From assembly GCF_022379125.1 (NCBI RefSeq), contig NC_061519.1, forward strand, positions 23,919,101-23,983,100: a stretch of DNA of 64,000 nt, read 5' to 3'. Origin of the DNA: Scophthalmus maximus. Taxonomy: Eukaryota. Positions within the stretch are counted from its first letter, which is position 1; each line of letters begins with the position of its first letter. The translations under genes were made by a program, and so were the position numbers. Shown in pieces: positions 41,027 to 63,200 of the stretch. Under the pieces are notes generated by a model, which was given only the letters and a program-made list of their open reading frames with translations, did no database searches and was not told the DNA's origin.

Positions 41027-42868
41027 CTAGATATTGAGTCCGTCCTCCTGCAGAGCTCGAGATCCCAGACGGCTGCACTCATGCCTTCTGTCTCTGTCGC
41101 TTCCTCTCCTTTGTCCCTCCCTCCTCCGACCCTCTCCATCCTCCCTGCTCTTCCTCCTCTCCTCCTCCTCCTCCCCGTCGCCTCCCGCTCTCTCAAACTG
41201 CCTCCTGGCGCTCTCCACCCTGCTCCCTCGTTTCTCGTCACGCTCTCCTCCGTGGCGACTCCTCTGCGACGCCGACTCCTCCCTGCTCTTCCTCCTCTCC
41301 TCCTCCTCCTCCCCCTCCTCGCCTCCCGCTCTCTCAAACTGCCTCCTGGCGCTCTCCACCCTGCTCCTTCGTTTCTCGTCACGCTCTCCTCCGTGGCGAC
41401 TCCTCTGCGACGCCGACTCCTCCCTTTCCCTCGCCGCCGCCGCCGCTTCGTGACTTCGATGCGACTCTTTCCTCGCGGCGCTTTTCCCGCCGTCTTCTCG
41501 TTTTGTCCATCTCTCCGTCTCTCGCGGTTGATCCCTCGCTTCTTTACTTTCTCTCCTCTCTCCTCTGCTCGCCTGGGCTCTCCAGTCTTTTGCTCCTCGC
41601 TCCTCCTCCTCCTCCTCCTCTGTCCTCCTCCGTCGCTCCGTCCTGTCACTTTCCTTTCTGGCGAGTCTCTCCTTGTCCGTTCTGTGTTCACTCCCCCCTT
41701 CTCCGTCTCGGTTGCTTCTGCTGCTGTGCCTCCCCACGCTCCCACTTTCCTCCTCTTTCTCTCTATTCACCGGTTTCCATTCGTGCCTTATCCCTCTTTC
41801 ATGCGCTCTGCCGCTCTGGCTCCTCTGACCTTCTCTCTCAGATTTCACCCTCTCTAAACTGGGGTTTCCACTCAAGTCTTCTCGCTTCGAATCACCCGAT
41901 TTACTCTCAGCCCCCTCCCGTTCTCTCACGTCCGCCCTTTTCTGTTTTTCCTCCGTCTTTTTATTCGCACCAGCATCTGCTTTTGCCTTGTCCTGCTTGC
42001 TCTCATATTTCTCTTTTACAGCTGTTATTCTGTTCTCGGTTTCTTTGTCTCTTTTGCTTCCTTTCTGAGATTGAGATTCTTTTAAAACTTCCTCTTTAGC
42101 AGCTTTGACCATGTTCTCATTTCCCTGCTCTTTGTCCTGATCTGGTGGCTTCACCAATTTGGATTCAGATTTGCTTTCTTCTTCCGTTTTACTTTCCTTC
42201 TTTCCATCATCTTCTCTTGTCTCCTCCTCCTCCTCCTCCTTGTTGTCCTTTTTCTCTTCATCTCCCTTTTCCTTTTTCTCCTTACTTTTCAGAGTTTCCT
42301 TCTCCAGCTCTTTGTTCTTCCTCTGCTCCTCCTCAATCTTCTTGTCCAGTTTCTCCTCCAGCAGGTCCAGCTCCTGGTCCAGCTCGGCCAGCTTCTTGGG
42401 ATCCGACTCAAAGTTGTCTTCGACCTCCACCTCGATCTCCTCGATCTCCTCGTACTCCTCCAGCTCGATGCCGTCCATGGTTTTCTGCAGCTGCGTCTTG
42501 ATCTTGTTCAGCTCCAGGAGACCGCCTTGAAGGTCTTTGCAAACGTCTCTGATCTTGGCGGCGAATTTGGTTTTGGCGCCTTTGCGGAGCTCGTGGGAGT
42601 CCTTGGCGAGGAAGAAAACATCCAGGGCCAGGAAGAGGGCCGACATGACCCCCGTGGTGACGCTGATGGCCTGGGCAGCTTTGGCGGCGCCGCCTGCGGC
42701 GCCCAGAACCTGCACGGTGCTGATGAGCTTGTCGGTGTTGATCATCAGCGCTTTGCCGGCGCGGCCGCCCTCCTTCATCACATGTTTGATGTTGTGGTTC
42801 ATGGCCTTTCTGGCAGCACTCTGAGAATATTTCTCAAAGTCCCACTCCTGCAGGGTGTCCATTCCTTC
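41027..42868 (-). CDS. ApoL-domain gene, last coding exon. The N-terminal roughly 180 aa carry the C-terminal half of the ApoL domain (EGMDTLQEWDFEKY...LGAAGGAAKAAQAISVTTGVMSALFLALDVFFLAKDSHELRKGAKTKFAAKIRDVCKDLQ). A roughly 430-aa E/K/R/D/S-rich low-complexity tail follows, with stop at 41027
   Basis: 611-aa minus ORF; acceptor cctcctctag|GAAGGAATG at 42868; residues SALFLALDVFFLAKDSHELRKGAKT align with the ApoL family C-terminal amphipathic region (human [33 protein letters not shown]); AATAAA-equivalent tttatt on + strand at about 40821/40861. Confidence 0.8.
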   Translation of the reverse strand, partial: EGMDTLQEWDFEKYSQSAARKAMNHNIKHVMKEGGRAGKALMINTDKLISTVQVLGAAGGAAKAAQAISVTTGVMSALFLALDVFFLAKDSHELRKGAKTKFAAKIRDVCKDLQGGLLELNKIKTQLQKTMDGIELEEYEEIEEIEVEVEDNFESDPKKLAELDQELDLLEEKLDKKIEEEQRKNKELEKETLKSKEKKEKGDEEKKDNKEEEEEETREDDGKKESKTEEESKSESKLVKPPDQDKEQGNENMVKAAKEEVLKESQSQKGSKRDKETENRITAVKEKYESKQDKAKADAGANKKTEEKQKRADVREREGAESKSGDSKREDLSGNPSLERVKSEREGQRSQSGRAHERGIRHEWKPVNREKEEESGSVGRHSSRSNRDGEGGSEHRTDKERLARKESDRTERRRRTEEEEEEERGAKDWRAQASRGERRESKEARDQPRETERWTKREDGGKSAARKESHRSHEAAAAAREREESASQRSRHGGERDEKRRSRVESARRQFERAGGEEGEEEEERRKSREESASQRSRHGGERDEKRGSRVESARRQFERAGGDGEEEEERRKSREDGEGRRREGQRRGSDRDRRHECSRLGSRALQEDGLNI

Positions 42869-43407
42869 CTAGAGGAGGACAGAGGGTCAACACAGTCCCA
42901 GAGAGGTTAATTCTTTTTTTTTTAAAGACACATTCATTTCAAAACTGTTACTACTCGGCATTATAGCACTCTTTCCCAAAGATTTCTGACCATAAAAGAA
43001 AAAAAGAGTCATCCGGAGATGACCAGCCAGCAGGGTTAATAAGACCCAGATTTATTGCAAAAGTGCATAATTTCAGGATATTTATTTCACATTTCTCAAC
43101 TGACCGACGCCCACAATGGTGCAGAAACGATGACTCAATCATTTGATTGTGTAATTTGTCAAACATAAAACAGCATTACACATCATCACACCTCCCCTGG
43201 TGTTTAGTTTTACTTGCTGTTACTGTTTTACGTCATTGTAAATTTAACATTTTTCGAGTGTCCAACGGCTGGTCGGACAAATCGTTGCCTCAAACTCACC
43301 CTGTGATGGTCCTTTTTAACTATCATGACATTTTAGAGACCAAATCTGAAAAGGTAAAAAAAAAAACAAGCTAATTCTCTTATCTATCTGTGCAACCATT
43401 TCCTCAC

Positions 43408-43822
43408 CTGCACGAACTCCATGCACTCTCTGATGTCCTTGATCTCGTCCTGGTAGTCCTGGATCATCTTCTCCAGCTTCTTCCGGTCCATGTTCGAGTG
43501 AACGGTGTCCGTGATGTTGGCCGTCGCCGAGGCGATGCTGCCCGCCGTCGCCACGCCGATCCCCACGGCCGTGACGATGATGGAGGCACCGAAGGTGAAA
43601 GGTGCCAGGATGAGCCCCGTGATCGTGGCCAAGCTACCCGCGACGCTGGCCACCCCGCCGCCCACGGCGGCCGTCACCGTTCGCTTGTGGAACTGATCCG
43701 AGGCGTCGGCCAGGGCCAGGAGCTCCAGGATGCGTTGCTGCAGCGACGCCCCCCGCTGGTTGAACAGGCGCACGAAGAGGCGAGCTGCCATGTAGACACG
43801 GTCAGCCGCCTGCTCCAGGGCC
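43408..43822 (-). CDS. ApoL-domain gene, penultimate exon: core ApoL domain (ALEQAADRVYMAARLFVRLFNQRGASLQQRILELLALADASDQFHKRTVTAAVGGGVASVAGSLATITGLILAPFTFGASIIVTAVGIGVATAGSIASATANITDTVHSNMDRKKLEKMIQDYQDEIKDIRECMEFVQ)
   Basis: Acceptor ccctgcag|G at 43822, donor CAG|gtgagg at 43408; Gly/Ala/Ser-rich hydrophobic hairpin LAD..HK..T.A.V.G..G..G...T..GL.LAP.T.G.S...TA.GIG is diagnostic of ApoL family (Pfam PF05461) membrane-insertion region; joins last exon in frame (VQ|EGMDT). Confidence 0.8.
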
Positions 43823-44491: not shown

Positions 44492-44543
44492 ATTTGCTCG
44501 TCTTCCTGCTGGAAATTGGACGTCTCGTTCCATTCTGTCCAAC
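44492..44543 (-). CDS. Candidate bridging exon ((G)WTEWNETSNFQQEDEQ(M)), supplies AT of the Met codon completed by G at 43822
   Basis: Acceptor gtttccag|, donor CAAAT|gtaatt; with a 1-nt carry-in gives an open frame and restores the frame of the ApoL-domain exon. Confidence 0.45.
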
Positions 44544-44664
44544 CTGGAAACGGGCAGCAACAAAAATACAATAAGTATAATTCATAAAATACATAAAAAA
44601 AGACACATTTATATATATTATATATATATATATTACAAATAAACAGTGAGAACAATCACACTTG

Positions 44665-44704
44665 CCTTTCACCGTGTTCCACCACTCTATCAGCTCATCA
44701 GTCT
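44665..44704 (-). CDS. Candidate exon ETDELIEWWNTVK(G) with GC-AG donor
   Basis: Acceptor ttgttttcag|GAG; donor AAAG|gcaagtg is the textbook GC-donor consensus (AG|GCAAGT); phase 1 end matches next candidate exon. Confidence 0.45.
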
Positions 44705-44766
44705 CCTGAAAACAAAGACATGTTATCCACGAAGAGAAAACTGATGTTCTCGTACATATCAAGCAC

Positions 44767-45011
<245 letters not shown>

Positions 45012-45289: not shown

Positions 45290-45352
45290 CTGTGCCGGGT
45301 TCAGCTCCTGCATCTCCACAGCCTCCTCGATGAGAGACATCTCATCTGCGAA
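45290..45352 (-). CDS. Candidate 63-nt phase-0 exon FADEMSLIEEAVEMQELNPAQ (acidic, B-like)
   Basis: Acceptor tttttgaag|TTC, donor CAG|gttggt; open 21 codons. Confidence 0.4.
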
Positions 45353-45595: not shown

Positions 45596-45649
45596 CTGAG
45601 TGGTCCTGGGTATTTTGGGAAGAGTTTTCTTGATTCGGAACGACACAAC
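45596..45649 (-). CDS. Candidate 54-nt phase-0 exon VVSFRIKKTLPKIPRTTQ (degenerate A-type: SFRIKKTLPK vs FSGMFKKSPK)
   Basis: Acceptor tttcttcag|GTT, donor CAG|gtgcgt; 18 open codons. Confidence 0.5.
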
Positions 45650-45785: not shown

Positions 45786-45857
45786 TCGTCTTTTCTTCTT
45801 GATCGTCCTCCTGCGTCTCAGCCCTCCTCCCTCTGGCGCCTCCACGTCCACGCTCTC
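45786..45857 (-). CDS. Candidate 72-nt phase-0 exon ESVDVEAPEGGGLRRRRTIKKKRR (degenerate A-type)
   Basis: Acceptor ccgttgcag|GAG, strong donor CGA|gtgagt; exactly 24 codons like canonical A exons. An alternative read-through would give a stop at 45714 (possible terminal exon of a separate array gene). Confidence 0.5.
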
Positions 45858-47431
45858 CTGCAACGGAAACCCCAAAAACATTTTGTTCAACAGCAGCAGA
45901 GCAACACGCAGGTGATCCCGCGAGGTTATCGCCTTAACCAGCTCACACAGCAACTCTCTTATTATACTATCATCATTTTAAAATGATTTATCTTTCAGAA
46001 TTTCTCTCTGTATCCATCATGAAAACAGTAGAGAATGTGAAACTCAAACCTTTCAAATCAAATAACTATGTATAGAGAGCAGAGGACTGGAAATTCAAGA
46101 AAAATTCTATTCCTCACTCTAATTATTCGACTTAAACGAGATCTCACACATCTCAGCGTTGATGGTACCGTACCTGTGGTACCACAGTTCTGGGCGTCCT
46201 CCTGAACATGCCGGCAAATCCTCCTTTTGTCTCCTGTCACGATGGAAAATCACAAAACATTTGCATGAGTCACAAGAAAGATAAGAAAACTTCCTCATTC
46301 ATCTAAACAGGTTAACACACTGAACACGACGCTCACCTTCGGGGCGTTTGTAGCTTCAAGAAGATTCTCAGTACTGGCGGAAGATTCTCCGTGTGCTGAC
46401 TGATCCTCCCGAAAAGCCATGAAATAAAATAAAAACATGCCATCAATTAGTTTAAAAGGTTTTTATTTCAGTAAACTGAAAATACCGATGTTGAAAATGT
46501 ATTTTGAACGTTCACCTGCAGAGAATCTGGTCTAGTCTCCCATTTCACAGCAGGTCTTGTCCCGTTATTGCTCATTTTAAATCTCATTTAAAATGCTACG
46601 TCTTTGATACAATTCAGGCTGATTCTATTCCATGATCATATTAAAACGTATCATTAGGGCCCGAGCCACTGGCAAGCATTGCCAGGCGAGGACGTATTGC
46701 AATTGAAAGAAATATTATTAATTCACGCTGCGACCTGCCCGAAAATCTGCACACGCATCAGAACCGGTGAACAATTTTGTATTTAGGGGTCTCGGGCATT
46801 GGCCTGCCAAAATGACTGGATAGAGCCCCTTACCACAATTATTCCCTAGCCTTAGAATTGATGTAGATCGACAAAATCTTGTTATCTTATTGTATTTGTG
46901 TCTTATTTCTTAATAAATCATCTTCTTTGAGTGTTGCTTTCCTTTGCCTCGAGTGCAAAGCACATTGGCTCGACTCCTGTTGTTTATTAATCTGCCATAT
47001 AAATACATTTATCTGGACATCTAACGCTCTGCGAGTCGCTTTCCTCAAACATTTGACTTCAAGAAGCTGCAAAGACAGAAAAACCTGGCTTTTTTATGAA
47101 AATTCATCTTTTCTCTGGAGTTTTTTGTGTTTTTGTTCGTGTGGTCGACCGATCGGAGGCATTCAAATATGTGCAGGGAACAAAACATGATGGTGAAAGC
47201 TCAATATTCGCTCCGTCAGCTGCATCCACAGACGTGGAGAAGCTCTCACCTCAGCAGCGTCGGCCAGACTGTCCCTGCTGGAGGACAGTTCCTCTGAGCA
47301 ATTGAGTGGATCCTGGAGAAATACATTTGGGAGGCATTCAGGTGGGTTGAATTTGATGATTCATACAATCATGATCATCTTAACAATGTAAATGAGAGCT
47401 TCAGCGGACGTATGAACAAATCCGGTTTCAC

Positions 47432-47503
47432 CTTAGTAGCGACGGAGCGCGGAGCCGGTTTGGGAGACTTCTTGAAGATCCCTGCGAGTCCTCCAGTCTT
47501 CTC
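47432..47503 (-). CDS. Array exon, A-type: EKTGGLAGIFKKSPKPAPRSVATK (72 nt, phase 0)
   Basis: Acceptor gtgtgtcag|GAG, donor AAG|gtgaaa; coordinates verified base by base. Confidence 0.65.
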
Positions 47504-50500
47504 CTGACACACGTGCAAACATCCACACATTAATAAATCAACAATCGGTAGCAGATAAGAAGGAGACAGGCTGATATTGTGATCGTCAGATTTTCTTTTT
47601 TACCTTCGATGTGTTTGCCTCCAACAGATTTTCGCAACTGGCAGATATTTTCTTCTCCTCGCCTGTGTTCGATTCCTGAACAGGAAATTAAATTGATTAT
47701 ATGCTATAATAATAATTATAATAATAATATAAACATTCCGTGAAGATTATTACTGTACCTCATCTGCTGTTCCCTCTGCTGGTTTCTTCTTAAACATCCC
47801 ACTGAAAATACTCTTCTCCTGAAAACGTTAAACGCAGACACATCAGGTTTGACTGTCATAGATAAATTACAGTACAATTTAAATTTTGTGGCATGCTGAA
47901 ATTTTTTTGCATATTTGAGTATACATGTTTGTATGTACGTGTTACTCTCCGTTTTACTCTGCCCTGTAATATTTGTACTCTTATATTTCTTTCCTATTTT
48001 TATGTGATCTTCAAACTGAGTTTAATTGTTTCCTATTATTTAACTTCACTTCTTCATTATTATCTCTAAAAGATAGTGCCATCTAAATATAGTTTTATTA
48101 TTATTATTATTATTATCTATGTTGATGGGGGAGTTGTCAAGTTTTATTAAAGTTGTGTGGCTCTAATACCCTAAATCTGATGTTTTCCGAATAAGAAAGA
48201 AACATCAGCGCAAACTTCAGTTTGCTTTTCAAACGCACAGGAACAGTTGTGTTGCACGATTCACCGTATTAAAACATGTGGCGTCATTTCACAGTGCTGA
48301 CATTTCAGATCTGGTTGAATAACCAACATTTCTCGACACATCACCTTGGTGTTGGTGTTTTCGGACAGACTGTCGGTACTCGCCGACAGCTCCTTCTGCT
48401 CCTCTTTGTCCTGAATAAAGAAAAACAATGGTCAGTTGGTAAATATGTGTCCGCACAGACGAGGATAATAAGAACATGAAACTAGTCGTGCTCTCACGTC
48501 TGCAGCAGCTTCATCTCCAGTCGCTTTGGGAGGTTTCTTGGGAAGAAGTCCACTGAAGAGACCGCCTTTCTCCTGACAAACACAAAGAGACACGCGTGGA
48601 TGGATTACGTTCCACCACTACTGTACTATGGATGGGTGCAAAAAACAACCACAAAGGGGGGGGGGTCCTTTCACATGTCTGTGCCTGTTGACTCATAATT
48701 GGTCCGTGTGGTGATGAGAAATGACTCTACAGTCATCAACCTGGTTTCATTTTGGACAGCGGCTTGCGAGGAGAATAAAAAGCATAATTCAAAGACCAAA
48801 CGCAGCTGATGAACATGTTTCCAAGCATCCTGTCAAATTGTTTTCTGCCTTTCAGGCATCTCAGCACACCTTTAAAAAAAAAAAGAAAGAACTAGCGTGT
48901 AGTGTGTTGAAACATGCTCTGACCTGTTACTTTACAACCTCAGATTCACATTATTGTCGCGTGTTCGAAATGGAGCTGTGTATAATTTAAAAAGTCTTTC
49001 AACACAAAATGCATGGTTTAAAGTAAAGAGAGAAGATCAAGACACGATTTTCCTAATGCATCTATATAAGATGAACATTCAGAGGAAGATGCTGCTGAGT
49101 GAAGAAGGAGATGATGAAGACGAGTTTTTGACAAACGATAACTTATGAGTGGTTATGACGGAGGTCGTCAGACACTGACCTCGTCAAACAGGTTGTCGAT
49201 GCTGGATGATCTTTTGAAGATGCCGGCCAGGCCTCCCTTTTTCTCCTGAAACACAAACTGCAGTTACTCCAATATTCAGAAATACTCAGTTTTATCGATC
49301 TTCACTGATACATTCAGCGAAAGAGAGAAAATCCAGAAAGCGACTTTGTTTCCGCGTGAACCACACAAGGACAACAACACAAGTGGATTTTCAAAGTTAG
49401 ATATTTAGTAAGTGAAAAATATAGTATTTTAATTTTATTTGACCCTTGAAGTTATTTTACAGATTAATAATTTACAAACAAACATGTTCAGGTTAATAAA
49501 ATAGGATATGATATGTCCATAACACAACATAGATTTCCAAATAGAATAGAATCCCAAATCTTTATTGAACATTTTAACTATTTTTCTAGAATCAGGTTAA
49601 ATTTTTCATAATTATTAGGCATCAATTTGCTTTAACAGTCTTGTTTTTAAATACAGATACTTACTTTGAACAAATGTTTACATACTATTATATGTCTTAT
49701 TTATAATTATATGTATACATGGAAGAAACTGTGTAATGTAAACTTTTTCTTTTTTATTTTGCTGATAATTCTTCTCTTATTTGTATTTTAAAGTATCTTA
49801 TAAGTATTTTTCTACAAGCATTAGTACTTTTGCTTAAGTAAAGACTCTTCAGCCACTGAGAAAGGATGTGAGTGTTTTCATCTTGAATAAGGTCCAGTTT
49901 AATGTGTTGGATACTTTGCTCTAACATACTTATTTTCCATTAATTCTTCTTTAATATTCAGGATTTTTTCTCTCTAGTTTTTGTCTTTGTAACTTTTTTT
50001 TATAAAGTGCAGCTGAATGTTGACCAGAACTAACAGGAAGCAGCAAACACATCAAAAACCTGTTTCTACAATCTGATTTGTCCAGAGGAGAGTGAGTGAA
50101 GAAAGGTTCTAGTTTGTTTGTCAGTCGCACCTTCAGGACGGTGGTGTCAGTCAGATTCTCACAGCTCCCCGACAACTGTTTTTCTTTGTTCCTCTCCTGC
50201 TCCTGAATTCGAACCAGAGAAGAGTCAAAGAGTCAATATCAGCTCCATCCTCTGATGATTTTAGATTGTTTATTCTTATTTTCATGCCTCTGGTTCATTC
50301 TCAGTACCTTCTCCGCTGCGCGCTCCGCTGGCTTCTGCGGCTTCTTGAACATGTTGCTGAAAATGCTTTTCTCCTACAAAATAATATTGGCGTCGGTGAA
50401 CATTTCTGAAGACAGTTTTGTCTGCAGGTGTTGTGTGCCGCATTGGACCTCGCTCACCTTGGTGGCGTTGTTCTCCGACAGGTCGTCGCTGCTGGTCGAC

Positions 50501-50589
50501 AGCTCGTCCTGGGCCTCGCTTTCCTGAAACAAGATTTTTTTTTAATTCCAAGTGATGCTGGGGGAAAACGAGTGGAAGATTGCGAGGCA

Positions 50590-54865: not shown

Positions 54866-54937
54866 CTCCTCCAGTCGTGGGCCTTCGGACATTTTGGGAG
54901 ATTTCTTGAACATCCCACTGAAAACGCCTCCTTTCTC
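54866..54937 (-). CDS. Array exon, A-type: EKGGVFSGMFKKSPKMSEGPRLEE (72 nt, phase 0)
   Basis: Acceptor gtatcag|GAG, donor GAG|gtaatg; coordinates verified. Confidence 0.65.
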
Positions 54938-55116
54938 CTGATACACAAAGAAAATATTACACGCCGACATAAAGTTTGAAGCTCATTAAAAATCATGCAG
55001 GTACTTATAAAGCTTTATGGGTGGATTATATTGTATACAGATGAGGGACAGTTAGGACTTTTACAGAAAATCCTTTCCAGTTTGCAAAAAAAATCTTAAT
55101 TCTAAACCTCTCTTAC

Positions 55117-55182
55117 TTTGTCTTTGCTCTCGGACAGACTCTCTGTGCTGGCTGCCAGCTCCATCTGCAGCGACTCTTTATC
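55117..55182 (-). CDS. Array exon, B-type: DKESLQMELAASTESLSESKDK (66 nt, phase 0)
   Basis: Acceptor gtgtttcag|GAT, donor AAA|gtaaga; near-duplicate of exon at 50830-50895 (DRDSLQTELAASNESLSEIREK). Confidence 0.65.
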
Positions 55183-56211
55183 CTGAAACACAAGGAGTCA
55201 AATAAATGAAGCAAAAGTGACGTCAAAGCGCCGACCCGTCTGTTTCAGATCGGTCATCAATCATAAGAACGGAATGTTAAGGAATGTTTTAAAATGCAAG
55301 AGGTACAAAACAGGGAAGCTGTTGTTAAAGATCCACGACAAAGAACTTATTCAAGTGTGTGTAAAGATGTGAGTCCATCACATTATAGGAGAAAAAGTCA
55401 TTCAAAAAAGAAGAGTCATACATGATTGTCTCGATCTTAGAGAAGAAATATCAAAGACGGTGGGGTAAACCTAAAGTATTTATTGGCCATAAAACATAGT
55501 TAAAGAAAGAATAAAAAAAAAATCTTAATCCACATCCGCACCAAACGTTAAGGAGTTCGTTCCCCATGTTCCCTCCGCCGAGTCTTGTGAAAATTGGTTT
55601 TGTAATTTTTGAAAAAATAGTCCAACAAACAAATACGACAATCAGACGCGGGTGAAAACATAAAGAACTTTCCTTGGCAGATGTAATAAACTGTATTTTA
55701 CTCTCCAACATATTCACACGTTGAACTGAAGCTATATAAAAATGAATTCATGACTCCGACAGTAGAGGATTAAAGCTCTTATTGGTCCGGACACATTCGA
55801 CCTCTACTTCACCATGTCTGGTGACGGCGTGGAGAATATTTGTTTTAGCAATGTTCAAGATTTGGACATGATCACCCGTCACTGTACCTGCCCAGGTGGC
55901 CCCTCCACAGGGACCTTGGGAGACTTGCGGCGAATCCCGCCGAAAAATCCTCCTTTGTCCTGGTGACGTCAAAAGGGATGAATTCACGCACGTTCACAAT
56001 GATTCTAATGTTGCATCATAATCATGTCCTGCCAACTCACCTTCGAGCTTTCAGTCAGATTTTCATTGCTGCCCGACGCGTCATCGCGTAGAGACCGTTG
56101 GTCCTGAAACACACAAACGGACAAGTTCAATGTGACGATCACGTCGCAGGGTAAAAAATGACGTCAATTTATGTCACTGCACACAAACTGGCATGTTTCA
56201 GCCGTCACCTC

Positions 56212-56283
56212 GTCAGCCTGAGCAGCATCTGCTGCTTTCGGAGTTTTCTTGAACATCGCGCTGAATATTCCTCCCTTTTCCTG
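56212..56283 (-). CDS. Array exon, A-type: EKGGIFSAMFKKTPKAADAAQADE
   Basis: Acceptor gatttcag|GAA, donor GAG|gtgacg. Confidence 0.6.
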
Positions 56284-56368
56284 AAATCATGAACAGATTC
56301 ATCCTGATCAAGCTCGGGTCTGTGTGGCCACTGCGACGGAAGATGAACGCTCATCTCTGCCGCTCACC

Positions 56369-56434
56369 TTGTTGCCGTTTTCAGACAGACTGTCGCTGCT
56401 CGCCGACAGCTTGCTCTGCGCGCCCAGACTCTCC
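56369..56434 (-). CDS. Array exon, B-type: ESLGAQSKLSASSDSLSENGNK
   Basis: Acceptor gtcgcag|GAG, donor AAG|gtgagc. Confidence 0.6.
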
Positions 56435-58261
56435 TGCGACGTCAGAGGGACGTTCACAAAAAAACGTTATCGGCCAAAGTGAAATTTAAACATGGACAGG
56501 CTTAATTAAACATATTTTGCAAAACGGCAAACTGTTATTTTGACATAGTTAGACGCAGAAAGCTATTTTTTTTTTCCCAGCTCACCTGCGGAGGCGTCTC
56601 ATCCGCCGGTTTGTCGGGTTTTTTAAAGAGGCCAGCGAAGAGGCCTCCCCTCTCCTGTGAGCAAATGTGCTTTTAGAAATGTACTGTTACACACACGGAT
56701 GGAATCTGCTTTTGTCACTGTTAAAAAAATACAGAATTAAACACAAGGGTCTTTTTTGTTTATACACATTTTGTTGCATTTGATTCAAACAGAAGCTTTT
56801 TTTTTTTTTTAACTCAAAACACTCCAAACTTGTTCTTTGACTCTTTTACCCTGCACACAAATGACCCTTGTGCTTCTCGTTTCCTCCCCGTGAACGGCAC
56901 CGTGTAGTTTCTGAAGCCGAGTTAACGCGCCACTCACCTGGGACAGTGCAGATGTTTTCTCCTCCACCTCTGCATCTTCGCGGTCACTGTCCGCTTTGCT
57001 GACCTGGCGGCGAACACATCAACCCCGAGGGAACAGGCTGGATGAGTTGAAAACTTGAAAACATGAAAGCATGAAAGCTTGACAACCACGGCAGAAGGCT
57101 GGACGTTACCGTTAGTGCAGGAGATAATCTCTCTTTGGGTGTTTTCCGGAACATCCCGGTGAGCAGATTTCCTTTGTCCTGAGGAAACGTGGAGAAAAAA
57201 TGACGTTTAAAAATCCTAAAAACATTTTTTTTTTACAGAAACAGAGAATGCTGAATACTGTATTCCCGCAGATATATATTTGCTCCACATGAAAGTGTAC
57301 ACTGTGAAATCACATCCTAAAAACAATTTCCTCCTCAGCGTTATCTACCTTGAGTGATTCCTTGTGGACAGGAGAGACGAGTGTTTGGCAGTGTTCATTT
57401 GAGCATTTGTACCAATACGGCGATTCACTAATGATTTTAAATATTTGCAGAAGCAGAACTGGCTTGTCAACATGAGAAGTCACGGGTCATCATTTTAATA
57501 CCGTTGCTGTCGATCTCTTACCCGTTTGGGTTCTGGGTTTTTTTCCGGCTTGTTTTTTTCGTTTTCGGTGGATTGTTCCTTGTCTGCGACTCCGTCCTCT
57601 GTGCTGGGAACTGGACTCGGATCTCTGCTGCCCTGAGACAAGAGTCGACAACCTTCAGCACAATATGTATCATCCTGAATTTCATATCAATACAACTTCA
57701 CAAGAGAAGGCGTGCTCATAATTTCACACAGTTTGCATCTCAAACCGTCTCCCGCCTTCTGCCTCACTATTTGTATTTAGAGCTGCCGAGTTGAATTTAC
57801 AGTTAGTTCTCTCTATGTTTTTTGTTTCTTTTTCTTGGGGGATTAACAGCAGAGGTCCCGGGCTGGATGTGAGCCAGAGACATGGAGATTAAACCTCTGA
57901 GCCTCCTACCATGGCAACCCCACAGTCAGAGCGTAAGAGTCACAGACGGAAAGTAAACGCAGCAAAAACGCCGGAAGGTAAAAGTGACACTGCAAGAGAG
58001 GAACACTTTTTGTGTGAAATTGTAAAAATAAATAAATAAATAGACTGCATTAATTCTTCGATAGGCAGAGCTCAAAGTAGAGCTGAGGGTGAAATATTAT
58101 CGTGCCACATTCAAGTGGATAGAGTACAGACCGTTTTTCATTTTATGTGAGAATCAGTAAAAAAAAGAGATTAAAGTCAGTCACAGCGATCCACCCAGGC
58201 TCCATCCATCAACCACAGGAAAAACATTAGAACATATCTTTCAAATAAAATAAAATACAAG

Positions 58262-58590: not shown

Positions 58591-58761
58591 TTCTGGTTTA
58601 GAAAACCTCGGAAGCTGCAGCCACCACCAGCAGAAAACACAGAACCAGACGGTTCTTCTCTTCGTACCTTCGGTGACGACTTGAACTGCAAACCTTTCAT
58701 CACCCCCTTCAGACCCGCCTGTCAACCACAGTCACATGTCACATGCTGGCGGATTAAGACC

Positions 58762-58908
<147 letters not shown>

Positions 58909-59745
58909 GGTTTGCTGCCAGCAGCCTGTTTGGCTGGAGCGTCGGCAGTTCTATCCTCTTCCTCACAGTCGTGGAACGCGTACGCCTGATGAGAACAAAA
59001 AGAAGAAGAAGAAATTCGGTGAACTGCTGATTCAAAAAATCGACTTCTGCTTTATTTATCTTCTGTGTCTAAAACATTATAGATATACACTGTATTTATT
59101 CCACGCTTTTCTTCGATTTGATGATTCAGCGACTCACCTGATGCTAATGCATATTCACCAGCCAATTTATATCAACACTGAATCATAAACACACACCTAC
59201 TGATCACACACCCACACACGCCTGTTTGCCACCAGAAACCTGTTGAGCATCTTTTTTGCACATTGACACACGTGAATTCATCCTTTCTATACTTTATCTT
59301 ATGAAGGCATTCATATCGATTTTTTTATTCTTACACACACTTTTATTTGATTGTCTCAATAACTACAAATGTACAGGTTTTGAAAAGCTAATAGGATTCA
59401 GGATGTGAGGTGCATGTTTAAGTACACAGATGTTCATCAGTGTGTGTACTGTAAGATGGTGTGCATGTCAAAATGAATGTGGTATTACTCTAAGTTTATA
59501 TACAAATGAAGCAGCCAATGGAAATCAGTTCCTGATTCACTGGCACTAACTATAAAACTGCCCTCCGCTGAATTAACAATTTGTCTCCGCTACCGTACAT
59601 CCTCTCTCATGTCCCTGTAAATACTAAAATTATAAACACACCAGAAACCTTATAAAGTTAACACAACAGTAATGGCATCAACGTGTACAAGGTACATTCA
59701 GGTAATATCTGTTTGACTGTGCAGAGAGGAGCTGTTCTTACGGTG

Positions 59746-59811
59746 AACGTTGGCGTCTTCTCCTTTTGGCTCCGGCGAAACATTCCGGTCAGGACCGACT
59801 GATTGCTCTGC
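59746..59811 (-). CDS. Upstream A-like exon SNQSVLTGMFRRSQKEKTPTFT
   Basis: Acceptor ctctgcag|AGC, donor ACC|gtaaga; 22 open codons. Confidence 0.5.
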
Positions 59812-59955: not shown

Positions 59956-60021
59956 CTGTTTGAAATCCGCTTCATCTTTGGAATCTCCGGCAGCTTCCGG
60001 TTTGTCACTTTGTCTGGACTT
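59956..60021 (-). CDS. Candidate exon KSRQSDKPEAAGDSKDEADFKQ
   Basis: Acceptor cctccgcag|AAG, donor CAG|gtacca; 22 open codons. Confidence 0.45.
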
Positions 60022-60180
60022 CTGCGGAGGAGGATGAGGAAGAGGAAGGACGTTGATCTGCGATTTATAAAAAAACGAGCACGTACAGAAGTAATGTGGT
60101 GTTTTATTGTTTGTGTACCTTTGTGTCCTCAGTGTGTACCCGCCAGCGCTGGCTGTGTCTGCTTGTTGCATCCAGTTCCT

Positions 60181-60199: not shown

Positions 60200-60248
<49 letters not shown>
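60181..60248. repeat. (CA)n microsatellite
   Basis: Dinucleotide run. Confidence 0.9.
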
Positions 60249-60253
<5 letters not shown>

Positions 60254-60494
60254 CCCAGGAGGGAACAATAACTTTATAAAATGATACTGGAAACAGGAAA
60301 GAAACATGAAACATGAAACCTTGAGTAGCTTTGGGTGGTTCGTTACTGCAACCTGTTCTCACACCAAACTCCAAACTGCAGGCAACGATGACTCACTCCG
60401 ATCTCAATGAAAAAGTCTCGACATAAAGCAAACATAGTCCTATTAATACATTAAACCCTCAGAAACATCAAACATATTTGGGTGTACTGTACCT

Positions 60495-60557
60495 TTTCCG
60501 TGGGTCGAGGTGGAATCACAGGAGTTTCAGACGGATTCTCTTTGTTTCCTTTGTCCT
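60495..60557 (-). CDS. Candidate exon DKGNKENPSETPVIPPRPTEK (PxxP-containing)
   Basis: Acceptor gtgtcag|GAC, donor AAG|gtacag. Confidence 0.45.
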
Positions 60558-61401
60558 GACACAGACGGAAAAAAAGGTTTAAGTCATTTAATATAATTTA
60601 ATTGTTTGGACAATAATCCACATAGTGTAGTAAACATAAGCAGATTCTTAATTAAAATTAGTACAAAGGCCACATATTTAATATGTATATTGATGTTTTA
60701 ATATGAGATGTAAAGCAAATGCATGACCAACTGATTTAGTTTGTCCCTAAATAAATAAATGTCTGGTTGGCTTTAAAATGATATTCTAGATATTCTAGAT
60801 ATTCTCTATTCTGTGATTCACATAATAAAAATTAACAGCAATCTGAAAAAAGCAGTTAATACCTCATTGATTGTGGCTGCTGCTCTTTTCACTCTGTACT
60901 GTGTCTGAGTCCGTTCCTGGAAAGAAAAAAAGAAAAGTTAATAAAAACGCTATCATTCAAACTCGCTAATTCTCCTCATTTTCTCTCAGATCGTTTCAAT
61001 GTCAGTGCTCCACACAGAAATGTTCTAACCCAGAACCTTCTTGCTGTGCTGTGACAGTGCAAACCACTGTGATGCTCCTGATTCAATATTCAATATCTTT
61101 ACAAAAAGGTGTGCGAGTGCAAAAAAAGAGACTTCAGATCTTCTCCACTACAAAAAAATCGACTTAAATGTTCCCAGATGTTTAGGGCACGTCGGCCAAC
61201 CACATCTGCTCCGCGGGGGAGGAACTCTGAGACGCACGGGGGAAAGAACATGGACGAAAAGCCATTTCAGGAAATTACATTTGAAAACCTACAGGCTATG
61301 AAAAGAGCACGAGTGTCTTCAAGGTTGACTGCCACTGTATCGTTTGACTTTGTGTACACAAAAAACCACCGGAGATAAAAAAGACTGTTGGTGTCGGACT
61401 C

Positions 61402-61461
61402 ACGGCGTCTGAAGGTCGCGGCGGCACCAGAGGAGTCGGCTTCTCCGGGTCACTTGTCTTA
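61402..61461 (-). CDS. Candidate exon IKTSDPEKPTPLVPPRPSDA (PxxP-containing)
   Basis: Acceptor tctccccag|ATT, donor GCC|gtgagt; 20 open codons. Confidence 0.45.
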
Positions 61462-61607
61462 ATCTGGGGAGATCATTTCAGAACTCATTATGTACATAAG
61501 CCTCGCAGCGACCTCATGAAGTCATGTAAAGTCTTTTTTTAAACTTAAGCAAACATGCAAGACACGTGATTGACAAATGAAAGTTAGGTTTGGGTTCATT
61601 CCAGTAC

Positions 61608-61634
61608 CCCGGCAGGCTTCGGAGCAGGTTTCGG
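61608..61634 (-). CDS. Candidate 27-nt micro-exon PKPAPKPAG
   Basis: Acceptor ctacag|CCG, donor GGG|gtactg; phase 0. Confidence 0.4.
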
Positions 61635-61789: not shown

Positions 61790-61837
61790 CGGCTTTGGTT
61801 TCTTTTTGACTTCTGTCGTCATCATACACGCCTCCAT
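61790..61837 (-). CDS. Candidate first coding exon with start codon: MEACMMTTEVKKKPKP (ATG at 61837-61835; exon itself 61790-61842)
   Basis: Acceptor ttgtttccacag|GC at 61842, donor CCG|gtgaga at 61790; first in-frame ATG in a chain of phase-0 exons. Confidence 0.4.
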
Positions 61838-63089
61838 CCTGCCTGTGGAAACAACACAGAGATTATTTATTTTTTTAATGTATAAATATGACCAATGACA
61901 CAGACTGAAGCTTCATCCCTTTAATAGGAGATTTGATCAGTTGGCATCAGTTTCCTTTAAAAAATATCGATTTTGAGACATGTTTCAGATCAAACAACAA
62001 ATCATTGAATCATGAATACAGTTGTTGGTTGTAGTGCTGCAACTAATTATTATTCTCCGTATCGATTAATCCGCCATTTTGTGTTTTAGATTGTGATTGG
62101 TCTGTAAAACATCCGAACACTGAGCAACAACCCACAACTCCAAAACCTTCAATTGACCACAAAGTAAGACGAAGAAAAACTGCTAATTCTCACGTTTGAG
62201 CACCTGGAGAATTAAAATTTGGGCTTTTCTGCTTTCAAACTTCATAAAACAGTGAAAAATGTTTATATCTTTAACCTTGTGCACAGGGTGATGTCCCATT
62301 AGAGCCGCAACAGTTAATCGATTAGTAATCGCTTACTAAATTAATCTGCAACTATTTTGATAATCGATTAATCGGTTACAGTAGTTTTAATTCTGTGATT
62401 TCGTGTATATCATCAAATATAATAAAAGACAATAAGAGAAACAAAAAAAGCTCACATTTGAGAACCAGGAACCATCAAACATTTGATATTATTTGCTTAA
62501 AACGAGAGTCGTGAACCAAATATAATTTGTTCAAACAAATAATGACTTAATCAGAACGTATCGTCTTTAAAATCAATAAAACCGTTGCAGGCAACAATGC
62601 ACACAAAAAAATCACTGGAGTATCAGCAGAAGAACAGACATGACATTAATATGCTTCATTTAAATAATCTTAACATGTTCTGCTTGTAGATGATTTATCT
62701 GTTAAAAGAAACTGTTACCAGCCCAGCAATGGAAAGTAATGGACAATAATGAAGCACAGATTGTCAAGAACAAGCAAATTAACAACTATCAAAGTGCGGC
62801 ACTTGAACACAGCATAAGTATTTTTGAATTTTTAAAAACTCTTTTTCGATTCCACCTTTTCACATCCAACAACAAGTCATCAAGTGAAAGTCTAGAGCAC
62901 TAGATACAGAAGTGCAGCTCACAGTTTGACACGTTTGGAGAAGTAACACAACAAAACACTTCTTTTTTCTCCTTAAAATTGAACTCGGCTGAAGTCAATG
63001 GCAGAAACTCAACCCTGCGCGTCAATGGACGGCGACTCGTCCGCGTCACTGCGGCGCGACACCGGGCGGCTTCACCTACCGGAGGTTCG

Positions 63090-63200
63090 AAGACGCTTCA
63101 CGGACAATTCACTTTTAACTCAGGGTTTTTGTTTCTTCAGCGAATTGTGTGGAAGCTTCGTGGAGTTGGCGGCGGCTCCTTCACCGACAACACATCCCCG
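63090..63200 (-). other. Candidate non-coding 5' exon / TSS region for the array gene
   Basis: Minus-strand donor CTCCG|gtaggtg at 63090; all three frames closed; local CpG enrichment 63000-63200. Confidence 0.3.

What the first reader, a model, noticed from the sequence alone, without database searches (positions are those of the whole stretch)
41027..63200. Possible single giant ApoL-family gene: N-terminal PxxP exons + at least 16 tandem A/B exon pairs + ApoL domain + charged tail
On the minus strand a chain of exons, all bounded by consensus splice sites, can be joined in one open frame. The order is: an ATG exon at 61837, Pro-rich micro-exons, about 32 phase-0 array exons (46.2-57.6 kb), degenerate repeat exons (45786-45857, 45596-45649, 45290-45352, 44940-45011), two phase-shifting bridging exons (44665-44704, 44492-44543), the ApoL-domain exon (43408-43822) and the terminal exon (41027-42868). 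The bridging exons restore the ApoL frame exactly, with the Met codon of MALEQAADRVYMAARLF assembled across an intron. No independent first exon or ATG for the ApoL part was found, and no convincing terminal exon for the array was found between the two. ApoL proteins are pore-forming innate-immunity effectors that evolve fast in fish. An ApoL domain fused to a large exon-array extension would be a new architecture.
Basis: partly seen in the sequence, partly recalled or inferred. Interest (0 to 1): 0.9.

Follow-up and report, generated by a model that had tools for sequence, protein, structure and literature searches.

The report
Turbot giant ApoL-domain gene, already annotated
The exon chain is real and forms one 50-exon gene for a 1,789-residue ApoL-domain protein with a long repeat-exon extension, but it is the turbot copy of a conserved teleost gene (apold1a / si:rp71-1g18.13) that public databases already model this way, so it is an uncharacterised gene rather than a new architecture.

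Summary
On the minus strand, 50 coding exons (61837 to 41027) join into one open 1,789-codon frame. They comprise PxxP N-terminal exons, 33 A/B repeat exons that all start and end on codon boundaries, four linker exons, two frame-shifting bridge exons, an ApoL domain (Pfam PF05461, E 1.6e-31) and a charged tail. One correction: bridge exon 1 is 44705-44666 and uses a GC donor.

The single-gene reading is supported. The window is turbot (Scophthalmus maximus). A GenBank model of this locus already joins array, ApoL domain and tail. Full-length array+ApoL models of 1,000-1,740 aa exist in over 100 teleosts, from eels to percomorphs, and match my chain exon for exon. A 4.7-kb intronless rainbow-trout contig links array exons, linker, ApoL domain and stop codon in one molecule. 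Against a notothenioid genome, DNA conservation is confined to the exons (47 of 50 collinear). dN/dS is 0.25 for the array, 0.15 for the linker and 0.09 for the ApoL domain.

The claims of a new architecture and of fast evolution are not supported. I found no paper describing the gene, and its function is unknown. My inference is an intracellular membrane-anchored scaffold whose disordered arm varies in length through splicing of cassette exons.

The parts
62800..63300 (-). Putative promoter and non-coding first exon region (inferred)
   Evidence: This is the only stretch near the gene that is both CpG-rich and GC-rich (CpG observed/expected 1.11-1.17, GC 0.46-0.55). Block 63228-63281 is 81% identical to a block about 1 kb upstream of the ATG exon in Pogonophryne. 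A possible donor CCG|GTAGGT lies at 63080/63079. No transcript data were available.
61790..61837 (-). N1, ATG exon: MEACMMTTEVKKKPKP
   Evidence: Larimichthys and Gasterosteus models start the same way, MEAC...KKKPKP, 12/16 identical. Found in Pogonophryne.
61608..61634 (-). N2, 27-nt Pro-rich micro-exon: PKPAPKPAG
61404..61463 (-). N3: IKTSDPEKPTPLVPPRPSDA, containing a PxxPxR motif
   Evidence: Identical in turbot model P0121. Weak p47phox proline-rich hit.
60863..60916 (-). N4: ERTQTQYRVKRAAATINE
60493..60555 (-). N5: DKGNKENPSETPVIPPRPTEK, containing a second PxxPxR motif
60119..60178 (-). N6: ELDATSRHSQRWRVHTEDTK
   Evidence: Weakly conserved (7/20 with Larimichthys). No counterpart found in Pogonophryne.
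59956..60021 (-). N7: KSRQSDKPEAAGDSKDEADFKQ
   Evidence: No counterpart found in Pogonophryne.
59742..59807 (-). A0, upstream A-type exon: SNQSVLTGMFRRSQKEKTPTFT
   Evidence: A-profile HMM hit at 31.4 bits. 18/22 identical with Larimichthys. 82% identical with Pogonophryne.
58908..58985 (-). X1: [26 protein letters not shown]. Its donor runs directly into a (GT)67 microsatellite.
58668..58718 (-). A0b: AGLKGVMKGLQFKSSPK, a unit of the 'GxLKGVMQKVNPFK' type seen in paralogs, here with the NPF motif lost
   Evidence: 94% identical with Pogonophryne. Paralog motifs seen.
57522..57632 (-). X2: GSRDPSPVPSTEDGVADKEQSTENEKNKPEKNPEPKR
57110..57178 (-). A1: DKGNLLTGMFRKTPKERLSPALT
56938..57003 (-). 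B1, B-like acidic exon: VSKADSDREDAEVEEKTSALSQ
   Evidence: 15/22 identical with Larimichthys. It lacks the LSASxDSLSE core.
56586..56654 (-). A2: ERGGLFAGLFKKPDKPADETPPQ
56368..56433 (-). B2: ESLGAQSKLSASSDSLSENGNK
56209..56280 (-). A3: EKGGIFSAMFKKTPKAADAAQADE
56041..56103 (-). B3: DQRSLRDDASGSNENLTESSK
55888..55959 (-). A4: DKGGFFGGIRRKSPKVPVEGPPGQ
   Evidence: 18/24 identical with Larimichthys.
55117..55182 (-). B4: DKESLQMELAASTESLSESKDK
   Evidence: The exon and its flanks are 88% identical to the B9 region, indicating a recent duplication. No counterpart found in Pogonophryne.
54866..54937 (-). A5: EKGGVFSGMFKKSPKMSEGPRLEE
54454..54513 (-). B5: AAEPLHGELSASTDSLSDNK
54309..54365 (-). A6: EKAGLFSGLLRKTPRTTGE
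53152..53220 (-). B6: ENLSAHKDLSASNDSLSEAAHAK
52918..52977 (-). A7: EKGGAFSGMFKKPSKPADEK
52205..52264 (-). B7: LLQGGELSASREGLSENSTK. It has a weak AAG acceptor.
   Evidence: Present in turbot model P0121.
52036..52107 (-). A8: EKGGIFGGIFKKAAKAMDASESEE
51600..51659 (-). B8: DESPDHELSGSSEHLSESKQ
51445..51525 (-). A9: KEEKGAGVFSGLLRKTPRASGEKTESP
   Evidence: 105 nt are 100% identical to A10, indicating a recent duplication.
50843..50908 (-). B9: DRDSLQTELAASNESLSEIREK
50630..50704 (-). A10: EKGAGVFSGLLRKTPRASGEKTESP
50458..50523 (-). B10: ESEAQDELSTSSDDLSENNATK
50308..50373 (-). A11: EKSIFSNMFKKPQKPAERAAEK
   Evidence: 19/22 identical with Larimichthys. 90% identical with Pogonophryne.
50131..50202 (-). 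B11: EQERNKEKQLSGSCENLTDTTVLK
49180..49245 (-). A12: EKKGGLAGIFKRSSSIDNLFDE
   Evidence: 20/22 identical with both Larimichthys and Gasterosteus. 95% identical with Pogonophryne.
48498..48572 (-). A13: EKGGLFSGLLPKKPPKATGDEAAAD
   Evidence: It follows A12 directly in the orthologs as well.
48345..48410 (-). B13: DKEEQKELSASTDSLSENTNTK
47759..47818 (-). A14: EKSIFSGMFKKKPAEGTADE
47604..47675 (-). B14: ESNTGEEKKISASCENLLEANTSK
47432..47503 (-). A15: EKTGGLAGIFKKSPKPAPRSVATK
   Evidence: 21/24 identical with Larimichthys.
47250..47312 (-). B15: DPLNCSEELSSSRDSLADAAE
46337..46399 (-). B16: SAHGESSASTENLLEATNAPK
46174..46233 (-). A16, last array exon: ETKGGFAGMFRRTPRTVVPQ
45786..45857 (-). D1, linker exon: ESVDVEAPEGGGLRRRRTIKKKRR, a basic cluster
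   Evidence: 19/24 identical with Larimichthys. Present in the trout transcript contig.
45596..45649 (-). D2, linker exon: VVSFRIKKTLPKIPRTTQ
   Evidence: Also present in paralogs as TMTFRIKRILP.
45290..45352 (-). D3, linker exon: FADEMSLIEEAVEMQELNPAQ. It has a GAAG acceptor and contains in-frame Met codons.
44940..45011 (-). D4, linker exon: ESTVEVQPVEMATYPTEDDPLQPE. Its donor GT is the first unit of a (GT)85 microsatellite at 44939-44770.
   Evidence: The orthologous exon is skipped in a medaka RefSeq isoform. Several short database models start at its Met.
44666..44705 (-). Br1, 40-nt bridge exon: ETDELIEWWNTVK plus one base. GC-AG intron with donor G|GCAAGT.
   Evidence: 13/13 identical with Larimichthys. 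Covered by all close ApoL homologs. The donor is GT in Pogonophryne.
44492..44543 (-). Br2, 52-nt bridge exon: (G)WTEWNETSNFQQEDEQ plus two bases. Together with Br1 it restores the reading frame.
43408..43822 (-). ApoL exon 1: first long helix and the hydrophobic hairpin (GGGVASVAGSLATITGLILAPFTFGASIIVTAVGIGVATAGSIASATA)
   Evidence: PF05461, E 1.6e-31. Hydropathy scan. 88% identical with Pogonophryne.
41027..42868 (-). Terminal exon: second half of the ApoL domain, with a second hydrophobic segment, then a Glu/Lys/Arg-rich tail of about 460 residues and the stop codon (41029-41027). It contains a 141-nt tandem duplication at 41139-41425.
   Evidence: Tail dN/dS 0.32.
40701..40870 (-). Candidate poly(A) signals (AATAAA) 156, 201 and 320 nt after the stop codon
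   Evidence: Motif matches only; no transcript data.

Best explanation
Shown. The interval is one protein-coding gene on the minus strand of turbot (Scophthalmus maximus) DNA. It is the ortholog of the teleost gene annotated as apold1a / si:rp71-1g18.13, which RefSeq also auto-names 'futsch-like', 'titin-like' or 'myb-like protein X'.

Fifty coding exons encode a protein of 1,789 residues, in this order:
1. An N-terminus with no hydrophobic leader and two PxxPxR motifs.
2. 33 short exons of 51-81 nt, each starting and ending on a codon boundary. There are two unit types. A is basic and hydrophobic, with consensus E-K-G-G-h-F-S-G-M-F-K-K-x-P-K (h = hydrophobic residue). B is acidic and Ser-rich, with consensus E-L-S-A-S-x-D/E-S-L-S-E.
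3. A conserved linker with a basic cluster and the motif LIEWWNTVKGWTEWNE.
4. An ApoL domain with two strongly hydrophobic segments.
5. A Glu/Lys/Arg-rich tail of about 460 residues.

The array is old. Each unit has its own ortholog in other percomorph orders, and the array exons are under purifying selection.

Inferred, at about 0.3 confidence for the functional part. The protein is intracellular. It is anchored to a membrane by the hydrophobic hairpins of its ApoL domain. The N-terminal array is a disordered multivalent arm of alternating positive and negative modules. Because every array exon keeps the reading frame when skipped, the arm's length and valency can be changed by cassette-exon skipping and by alternative use of tandem (NAGNAG) acceptor sites. 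The arm would recruit SH3-domain partners, and in the paralogs EH-domain partners, to that membrane.
For: Gene structure
- The exon chain gives an uninterrupted 1,789-codon frame with 49 AG acceptors, 48 GT donors and 1 GC donor.
- PF05461 scores 110 bits against a cut-off of 25.9.

Identity of the source and gene
- The window is 99-99.9% identical to turbot assembly GCA_006346445.1.
- GenBank model F2P81_000285 (P0121) of that locus already joins array, ApoL domain and tail.

Orthologous gene models
- The 1,007-residue N-terminal and array query finds 242 proteins. Of the 120 listed, nearly all are 1,000-1,740 aa and carry PF05461. They come from percomorphs, salmonids, smelts, herrings, eels and tarpon.
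- Alignment with Larimichthys RefSeq isoform X2 (1,708 aa), Gasterosteus 'apold1a isoform X3', Alosa and Megalops is collinear exon by exon.

Transcript evidence, from an ortholog only
- Logan contig SRR10006208_539 is 4,743 nt and carries one intronless ORF of 1,118 codons. It is 99.9% identical to Oncorhynchus mykiss RefSeq isoform X1. It runs from array units through D1-D4, Br1 and Br2 and the ApoL domain to the stop codon.

Selection
- Against the Pogonophryne albipinna locus, blastn matches are confined to the exons.
- 47 of 50 exons are collinear there. dN/dS is 0.245 for the array (646 codons), 0.146 for the linker, 0.088 for the ApoL domain, 0.38 for the N-terminus and 0.32 for the tail.
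- Orthologous units are 73% (A) and 59% (B) identical between turbot and Larimichthys. Units within the turbot array are only 38% and 37% identical to each other.

Splicing
- RefSeq isoforms in croaker, medaka and trout differ by whole A units (24 aa), by blocks of units (119 and 179 aa), by exon D4, and by single E or Q residues.
- 17 turbot exons have NAGNAG acceptors.

Protein properties
- A units carry a mean net charge of +1.8 and B units -2.9.
- The only hydrophobic segments in the protein lie inside the ApoL domain.
- PxxPxR motifs are present.
- NPF motifs are present in the paralogs.
- The only region near the gene that is both CpG-rich and GC-rich is at 62.8-63.3 kb. Nothing comparable lies between 43.9 and 46.1 kb.
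Against: - No turbot transcript was examined. The transcript evidence comes from trout.
- The RefSeq, Ensembl and GenBank models are computational predictions.
- Some databases split the locus. ApoL-only models of 270-530 aa start at the Met in D4, including a 292-aa Ensembl turbot model and a 382-aa zebrafish Vega model. Array-only models exist for Cottoperca, Anableps and Syngnathoides. Shorter products may therefore also exist.
- Exons N6, N7 and B4 had no collinear counterpart in Pogonophryne. B7 has a weak AAG acceptor and D3 a weak GAAG acceptor.
- The functional part rests only on composition and short motifs. The AlphaFold model was mediocre (mean pLDDT 58.8) and gave no significant structural neighbour.
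- Membrane insertion, protein partners and subcellular location are untested.
Confidence: 0.88

Rival explanations
1. There are two independent genes: an array gene ending near 45.7 kb, and a separate ApoL gene of about 400-800 residues with its own promoter. On this view the joined models are read-through artefacts of gene predictors.
For: Some database entries are array-only (P0149, 571 aa; P0136, 866 aa; P0181, 729 aa). Others are ApoL-only, starting at MAAYPTE or similar (P0002, P0007, P0025). Reading through the D1 donor meets a stop near 45.71 kb.
Against: - No conserved terminal exon exists for the array. Linker exons D1-D4 stay in frame with both sides and are under purifying selection (dN/dS 0.146).
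- The 40-nt and 52-nt bridge exons preserve the frame only when used together.
- A trout transcript contig physically links at least 9 array units to the ApoL domain and the stop codon.
- More than 100 species have collinear joined models.
- No region that is both CpG-rich and GC-rich lies between 43.9 and 46.1 kb.
- The array-only model P0149 ends by reading into an intron.
Confidence: 0.04
2. There is one gene with an additional internal start. Besides the giant isoform, an internal promoter or alternative first exon upstream of D4 would give a short protein of about 780 residues, consisting of the ApoL domain and tail without the array.
For: - The Scomber japonicus model P0003 begins with a different short exon (MSECDSKHLDE) spliced to D4.
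- Many models start at the Met inside D4.
- D3 and D4 carry in-frame ATG codons.
- The paralog has RefSeq isoforms with few or no repeat units.
Against: - No counterpart of the Scomber first exon exists in the window.
- There is no promoter-like region, both CpG-rich and GC-rich, in 43.9-46.1 kb.
- The short models come largely from older or protein-projection annotations and from short partial contigs such as P0001 on a 1,202-nt contig.
- This explanation adds to the best explanation and is compatible with it.
Confidence: 0.3
3. The array is a recently expanded, rapidly evolving repeat, as in immune effector genes. On this view its exon count is specific to the lineage or even to the individual.
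For: - A few recent events exist. A9 and A10 share 105 nt at 100% identity. The B9 region is 88% identical to the B4 region, introns included.
- Larimichthys has its own extra A/B pair.
- The other turbot assembly appears to carry an extra block of four exons.
Against: - Most units have one-to-one orthologs in Larimichthys, Gasterosteus and Pogonophryne. They are far more similar to their orthologs (73% and 59%) than to their neighbours in the array (38% and 37%).
- Array dN/dS is 0.245.
- The apparent extra block in the other assembly sits exactly at a single-N contig junction, so it is an assembly artefact.
Confidence: 0.05

Closest known systems
Teleost apold1a / si:rp71-1g18.13 gene models, for example GenBank F2P81_000285 (turbot), RefSeq 'apold1a isoform X3' (Gasterosteus) and 'microtubule-associated protein futsch isoform X2' (Larimichthys crocea)
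   Same: This is the same gene. It has the same exon order from MEAC...KKKPKP through the PxxP exons, A/B array, RRRRTIKKKRR-VVSFRIKK linker, WWNTVKGW motif and ApoL domain to the charged tail ending DGLNI/DGLYI. The turbot model lies on DNA that is 99% or more identical to the window.
   Different: My chain adds exons that the turbot GenBank model lacks: N1, N2, N6, X1, A0b, A2, A6, A7, A13, A15, B16, Br1 and Br2. It removes that model's duplicated block, which sits at an assembly junction. Exon number differs slightly between species.
Tandem teleost paralogs annotated 'apolipoprotein L, 1', 'apold1b' or 'apolipoprotein L6-like', for example turbot RefSeq 'dentin sialophosphoprotein isoform X3' (P0231), which lies immediately upstream of this gene
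   Same: They share the overall plan: PxxP motifs, repeated short motif units of A and B type, a WW..V..W motif and an ApoL domain. They lie adjacent on the same strand.
   Different: They have fewer or more homogeneous units. Many units carry NPF motifs (GMLKGVMQKVNPFK) that this gene has lost. The ApoL domain is about 40-75% identical. The charged tail is much shorter.
Mammalian APOLD1 (VERGE)
   Same: It contains an ApoL domain, has no signal peptide and is highly conserved (PMC8557400). The fish gene's name is derived from it.
   Different: APOLD1 is a small protein (about 279 aa, from my own knowledge) with no exon-array extension and no long charged tail. Orthology was not tested here.
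Human APOL1-6
   Same: They match the same Pfam family, PF05461, which includes the hydrophobic membrane-insertion hairpin.
   Different: They are primate- or rodent-specific expansions under positive selection, and APOL1 is secreted (PMC8557400). This gene is slowly evolving, lacks a leader sequence, and is 4-5 times longer.
Titin PEVK exon array (analogy only, from my own knowledge)
   Same: It is a long run of short frame-preserving exons encoding a disordered segment whose length is set by cassette-exon splicing.
   Different: The sequences and protein context are unrelated. Here the splicing evidence consists only of RefSeq isoform models from other fish.

Membership tests
ApoL family (Pfam PF05461) | Significant match to the ApoL profile above the curated cut-off | tested here: met
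   110.3 bits against a cut-off of 25.9, E 1.6e-31, covering profile positions 42-297 of 298.
ApoL family (Pfam PF05461) | Hydrophobic helical hairpin (membrane-insertion domain) inside the domain | tested here: met
   Kyte-Doolittle scan: residues 1087-1139 (maximum 2.13) and 1240-1265 (maximum 1.97) are the only hydrophobic segments in the 1,789 residues. The AlphaFold model places the first segment between two long helices, but with low confidence.
ApoL family (Pfam PF05461) | Pore or ion-channel activity in membranes | not testable with these tools
   This needs biochemistry.
Teleost apold1a / si:rp71-1g18.13 orthogroup | Full-length collinear similarity to proteins carrying that name | tested here: met
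   Gasterosteus, Pungitius, Osmerus, Sardina and Alosa proteins named apold1a or si:rp71-1g18.13 align from the first to the last exon.
Teleost apold1a / si:rp71-1g18.13 orthogroup | Same genomic neighbourhood | tested here: inconclusive
   A tandem ApoL paralog lies upstream in turbot. Adjacent pairs are suggested by consecutive locus tags in tarpon, eel and salmonids. A DOMON-like neighbour downstream matches the C-terminus of a fused Chanos model. No systematic synteny analysis was done.
Ortholog of mammalian APOLD1 | Reciprocal best similarity and shared synteny with human APOLD1 | not tested
   No mammalian sequence was compared. The name comes from database annotation only.
ClyA-family alpha-pore-forming toxins (Nhe/Hbl/Mak/Ahl) | Reproducible sequence or fold similarity | tested here: not met
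   A single-sequence phmmer search hit NheB and MakE at E 1.7e-4. A 40-sequence profile did not recover them. Foldseek placed AhlB and AhlC only at E about 2.5.

The most novel reading that the evidence does not exclude
A conserved family of intracellular ApoL-domain proteins, so far seen only in teleosts, carries a 30-exon splice-tunable array of alternating basic-hydrophobic and acidic-serine modules. No paper in the searched library describes it, and zebrafish ApoL studies considered only a small 2.6-kb locus. If the array is a combinatorially spliced multivalent arm that controls what an ApoL membrane anchor recruits, it would be an undescribed mode of ApoL function. It would also offer a tractable fish model for the poorly understood intracellular roles of APOLD1 and the APOL proteins.
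Probability: 0.3. Interest if true: 0.5.

Novelty: already known. Interest (0 to 1): 0.25.

Why it matters
As a discovery it matters little. The gene and its architecture are already in GenBank, RefSeq and Ensembl for turbot and many other fish.

Three things are still useful:
1. A corrected, complete exon model for the turbot gene. It restores the bridge exons and other exons missing from the deposited model and removes a duplication caused by an assembly join.
2. Evidence that the repeat exons are individually conserved and selected, which argues for a function other than filler or fast-evolving immune repeats.
3. A reminder that a strongly conserved giant ApoL-domain protein in fish has no described function. 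Fish ApoL work has focused on a different, small locus (PMC4492502).

Tried and rejected
1. Similarity of the ApoL domain to ClyA-family toxins. The phmmer hit to NheB and MakE was not reproduced by a profile search or by Foldseek on the AlphaFold model. Rejected.
2. Structure prediction of the linker plus ApoL region. Mean pLDDT was 58.8 and pTM 0.54, and only generic helical bundles were returned. Uninformative.
3. Pfam on the array. No family matched. There was only a sub-threshold p47phox proline-rich hit.
4. Copy-number difference of four array exons between two turbot assemblies. The junction is a single N between contigs, so this is an assembly artefact.
5. Literature. There were no hits for apold1a, rp71-1g18.13 or six RefSeq LOC identifiers. 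APOLD1 and APOL1 papers do not treat this gene.
6. Fetching orthologous DNA for Larimichthys, Gasterosteus, Solea and Xyrichtys failed because those isoforms are not on record. Pogonophryne worked.
7. Search for the array outside teleosts. The Megalops array query gave 94 hits, all teleost. The search is word-seeded and capped, so absence elsewhere is not established.
8. Pfam on long ORFs in 1-40 kb to name neighbouring genes gave nothing.
9. An alternative first exon like that of the Scomber model was not found in the window.

Full report
**What is in the sequence**

The window is eukaryotic, fish-like DNA. Fifty coding exons join into one frame of 1,789 codons plus a stop. That is 5,370 coding nt across 20,811 bp. 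All 49 acceptors are AG. Of the donors, 48 are GT and one is GC.

- the ATG at 61837;
- the four 'degenerate' linker exons;
- bridge exon 2;
- the ApoL exon;
- the terminal exon.

Bridge exon 1 is off by one base. It is 44705-44666, and its donor is G|GCAAGT, so the statement that all splice sites are consensus needs that one exception. The Met codon split across the last bridge intron is real.

**The array**

Two exon types recur.
- A units have the consensus E-K-G-G-h-F-S-G-M-F-K-K-x-P-K (h = hydrophobic residue) and a mean net charge of +1.8.
- B units have the consensus E-L-S-A-S-x-D/E-S-L-S-E and a mean net charge of -2.9.

All of them start and end on codon boundaries and are 51-81 nt long.

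Profile HMMs built from the units hit 17 A and 14 B sites. Every hit is on the minus strand between 46 and 60 kb. The best hit elsewhere in the 64 kb, on either strand, has E 0.09.

Between 57178 and 46174 there are 16 A and 15 B or B-like exons. The alternation is not strict: A12 and A13 are adjacent, and so are B15 and B16. Two more A-type exons lie upstream, at 59807 and 58718.

**The ApoL part**

The translation of the bridge exons plus 43822-43408 plus 42868-41027 matches Pfam PF05461 at 110 bits (cut-off 25.9, E 1.6e-31). A hydropathy scan finds only two hydrophobic stretches in the whole protein, and both lie inside this domain. There is no N-terminal hydrophobic leader.

**Where it comes from, and whether it is one gene**

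The window is 99-99.9% identical to turbot assembly GCA_006346445.1. GenBank model F2P81_000285 (P0121, 1,583 aa) of that locus already joins array, ApoL domain and tail.

A search with the 1,007-residue N-terminal and array part found 242 proteins. Of the 120 listed, nearly all are 1,000-1,740 aa and also carry PF05461. They come from percomorphs, salmonids, smelts, herrings, eels and tarpon. Many are named apold1a or si:rp71-1g18.13. Others carry automatic names such as futsch, titin-like or myb-like protein X, which the low-complexity tail would explain.

Alignment shows exon-by-exon collinearity of my chain with Larimichthys isoform X2, Gasterosteus apold1a X3, Alosa and Megalops. This includes the linker and both bridge exons.

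I could not get any for turbot. A Logan contig from run SRR10006208 provides it for an ortholog. It is 4,743 nt and 99.9% identical to rainbow-trout RefSeq isoform X1. It holds one intronless ORF running from array units through D1-D4, Br1 and Br2 and the ApoL domain to the stop codon. A contig without introns across a region that is split by introns in all three genomic loci I examined (two turbot assemblies and Pogonophryne) must derive from spliced RNA. That last step is inference.

**Selection**

I compared the region with the orthologous locus of Pogonophryne albipinna.
- blastn matches are confined to the exons.
- 47 of 50 exons have collinear counterparts, mostly with AG and GT at the matching positions.
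- Pooled dN/dS is 0.245 for the array (646 codons), 0.146 for the linker, 0.088 for the ApoL domain, 0.38 for the N-terminus and 0.32 for the tail.
- Orthologous units are 73% (A) and 59% (B) identical between turbot and Larimichthys. Units within the turbot array are 38% and 37% identical to each other.

The array is therefore ancient, and each unit keeps its own identity. Only a few events are recent. A9 and A10 share 105 identical nt. The B9 region is 88% identical to the B4 region, including intron sequence.

**Rivals**

- **Two separate genes.** Database entries that hold only the array or only the ApoL part suggest this. Four findings argue against it: the trout transcript, the selected in-frame linker, the frame-coupled pair of 40-nt and 52-nt bridge exons, and the lack of any terminal exon for the array. 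I give it 0.04.
- **An additional short isoform from an internal start.** This remains possible. A Scomber model has a different first exon spliced to D4. No such exon exists in the window, and nothing both CpG-rich and GC-rich lies in 43.9-46.1 kb. The only such region is at 62.8-63.3 kb, next to a block conserved with Pogonophryne. I give it 0.3.
- **A fast-evolving immune repeat.** The conservation data argue against this. An apparent four-exon copy difference between turbot assemblies lies at a single-N contig join and is an artefact. I give it 0.05.

**How it probably works**

Shown:
- RefSeq isoforms in croaker, medaka and trout differ by whole A units, by blocks of units, by exon D4, and by single E or Q residues.
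- 17 turbot exons have tandem NAGNAG acceptors.
- Every array exon can be skipped without changing the reading frame.

Inferred, at about 0.3 confidence: the protein is an intracellular, membrane-anchored ApoL protein. Its N-terminal arm is a disordered polyampholyte of alternating basic-hydrophobic and acidic-serine modules, and splicing sets its length and valency. The arm carries PxxPxR motifs, which are the class II SH3-ligand consensus (from my own knowledge; there is a weak p47phox proline-rich hit). Paralogs carry NPF motifs, which are EH-domain ligands (from my own knowledge). This points to a role in recruiting trafficking proteins to a membrane.

Structure prediction did not help. 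Mean pLDDT was 58.8 and no structural neighbour was significant. A marginal sequence hit to ClyA-family toxins was not reproducible.

**Comparison with what is known, and novelty**

This is the already annotated teleost apold1a / si:rp71-1g18.13 gene. A tandem paralog with the same plan lies just upstream, outside the window. Further paralog families of 650-830 aa share the plan.

In a capped search, all 94 array hits were teleost. Deeper origin was not tested, and neither was orthology to mammalian APOLD1.

I found no paper on the gene. An APOL evolution paper treats APOLD1 only in amniotes (PMC8557400). Zebrafish apol1 work used a small 2.6-kb locus as the single fish ApoL ortholog (PMC4492502).

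**Verdict**

- The single-gene interpretation is supported.
- The claims of a new architecture and of fast evolution are not supported.
- Novelty is 'already known' at the annotation level.
- Interest is 0.25. That score reflects a conserved giant protein that remains uncharacterised, and a corrected gene model for turbot.

Noticed in passing
window 44770-44939 and 58773-58907: Two long microsatellites, (GT)85 and (GT)67 on the gene strand, begin exactly at the donor GT of exons D4 and X1. The pre-mRNA would therefore carry long (GU)n tracts right after these two splice sites. The exon orthologous to D4 is skipped in a medaka RefSeq isoform. Whether the repeats influence splicing is unknown.
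   Followed up: partly
window 41139-41425: A 141-nt tandem duplication (2.1 copies, 96% identical) lies inside the terminal exon and repeats a 47-residue stretch of the charged tail. The other turbot assembly and its protein model P0121 have only one copy. This is either a coding length polymorphism or an assembly collapse.
   Followed up: partly
window 50602-50706 vs 51417-51521; 50815-50934 and 51018-51091 vs 55089-55208 and 55309-55382: There are recent duplications or gene conversion inside the array. Exons A9 and A10 share 105 nt at 100% identity. The B9 region, including intron sequence, is 88% identical to the B4 region. This contrasts with the otherwise ancient, diverged units.
   Followed up: partly
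L001 22620 (other turbot assembly), corresponding to window 51916-53880: GenBank model F2P81_000285 contains a duplicated four-exon block. In its assembly the two copies meet at a single-N contig junction, so the duplication is an assembly artefact. The model also lacks both bridge exons and several array exons.
   Followed up: yes
L001 1-7900 (about 2.5 kb beyond the window's right end): A tandem paralog on the same strand lies immediately upstream. It is turbot RefSeq 'dentin sialophosphoprotein isoform X3' (P0231, 1,110 aa). It also has A/B-type repeats, PxxP and NPF motifs, a WWNTVEQW motif and an ApoL domain.
   Followed up: partly
window 35305-35418, minus strand: A short match (50% over 38 residues) to the C-terminal part of a Chanos chanos 'apold1a' model. 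That model carries a DOMON domain (PF03351) fused after the ApoL part. This suggests a conserved downstream DOMON-like neighbour gene that was wrongly fused in the Chanos model. A 286-residue gene is called there in the other turbot assembly.
   Followed up: partly
window 58280-58573: A GGT-rich minisatellite (periods 9, 12, 21 and 33 nt; about 290 nt) lies in the intron between exons A0b and X2. The other turbot assembly has a 444-N gap at this place.
   Followed up: no
window 63228-63281 and 62800-63300: A non-coding block 81% identical to Pogonophryne lies about 1.4 kb upstream of the ATG exon. It sits within the only region near the gene that is both CpG-rich and GC-rich (CpG observed/expected 1.1-1.2). 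This is probably the promoter or the 5' UTR exon.
   Followed up: partly
window 44664-44666: The GC donor of bridge exon 1 (G|GCAAGT) is GT in Pogonophryne. It may therefore be a derived T-to-C change that kept an otherwise strong donor context, but with only two species the direction of the change is not established.
   Followed up: partly
ApoL domain, residues 21-153 of the query used: A single-sequence phmmer search hit the bacterial pore-forming toxin components NheB (6tao) and MakE (6w08) at E 1.7e-4. The hit covers the Gly/Ala/Val-rich hydrophobic hairpin. It was not recovered with a 40-sequence profile or by fold search, so it is probably compositional.
   Followed up: yes
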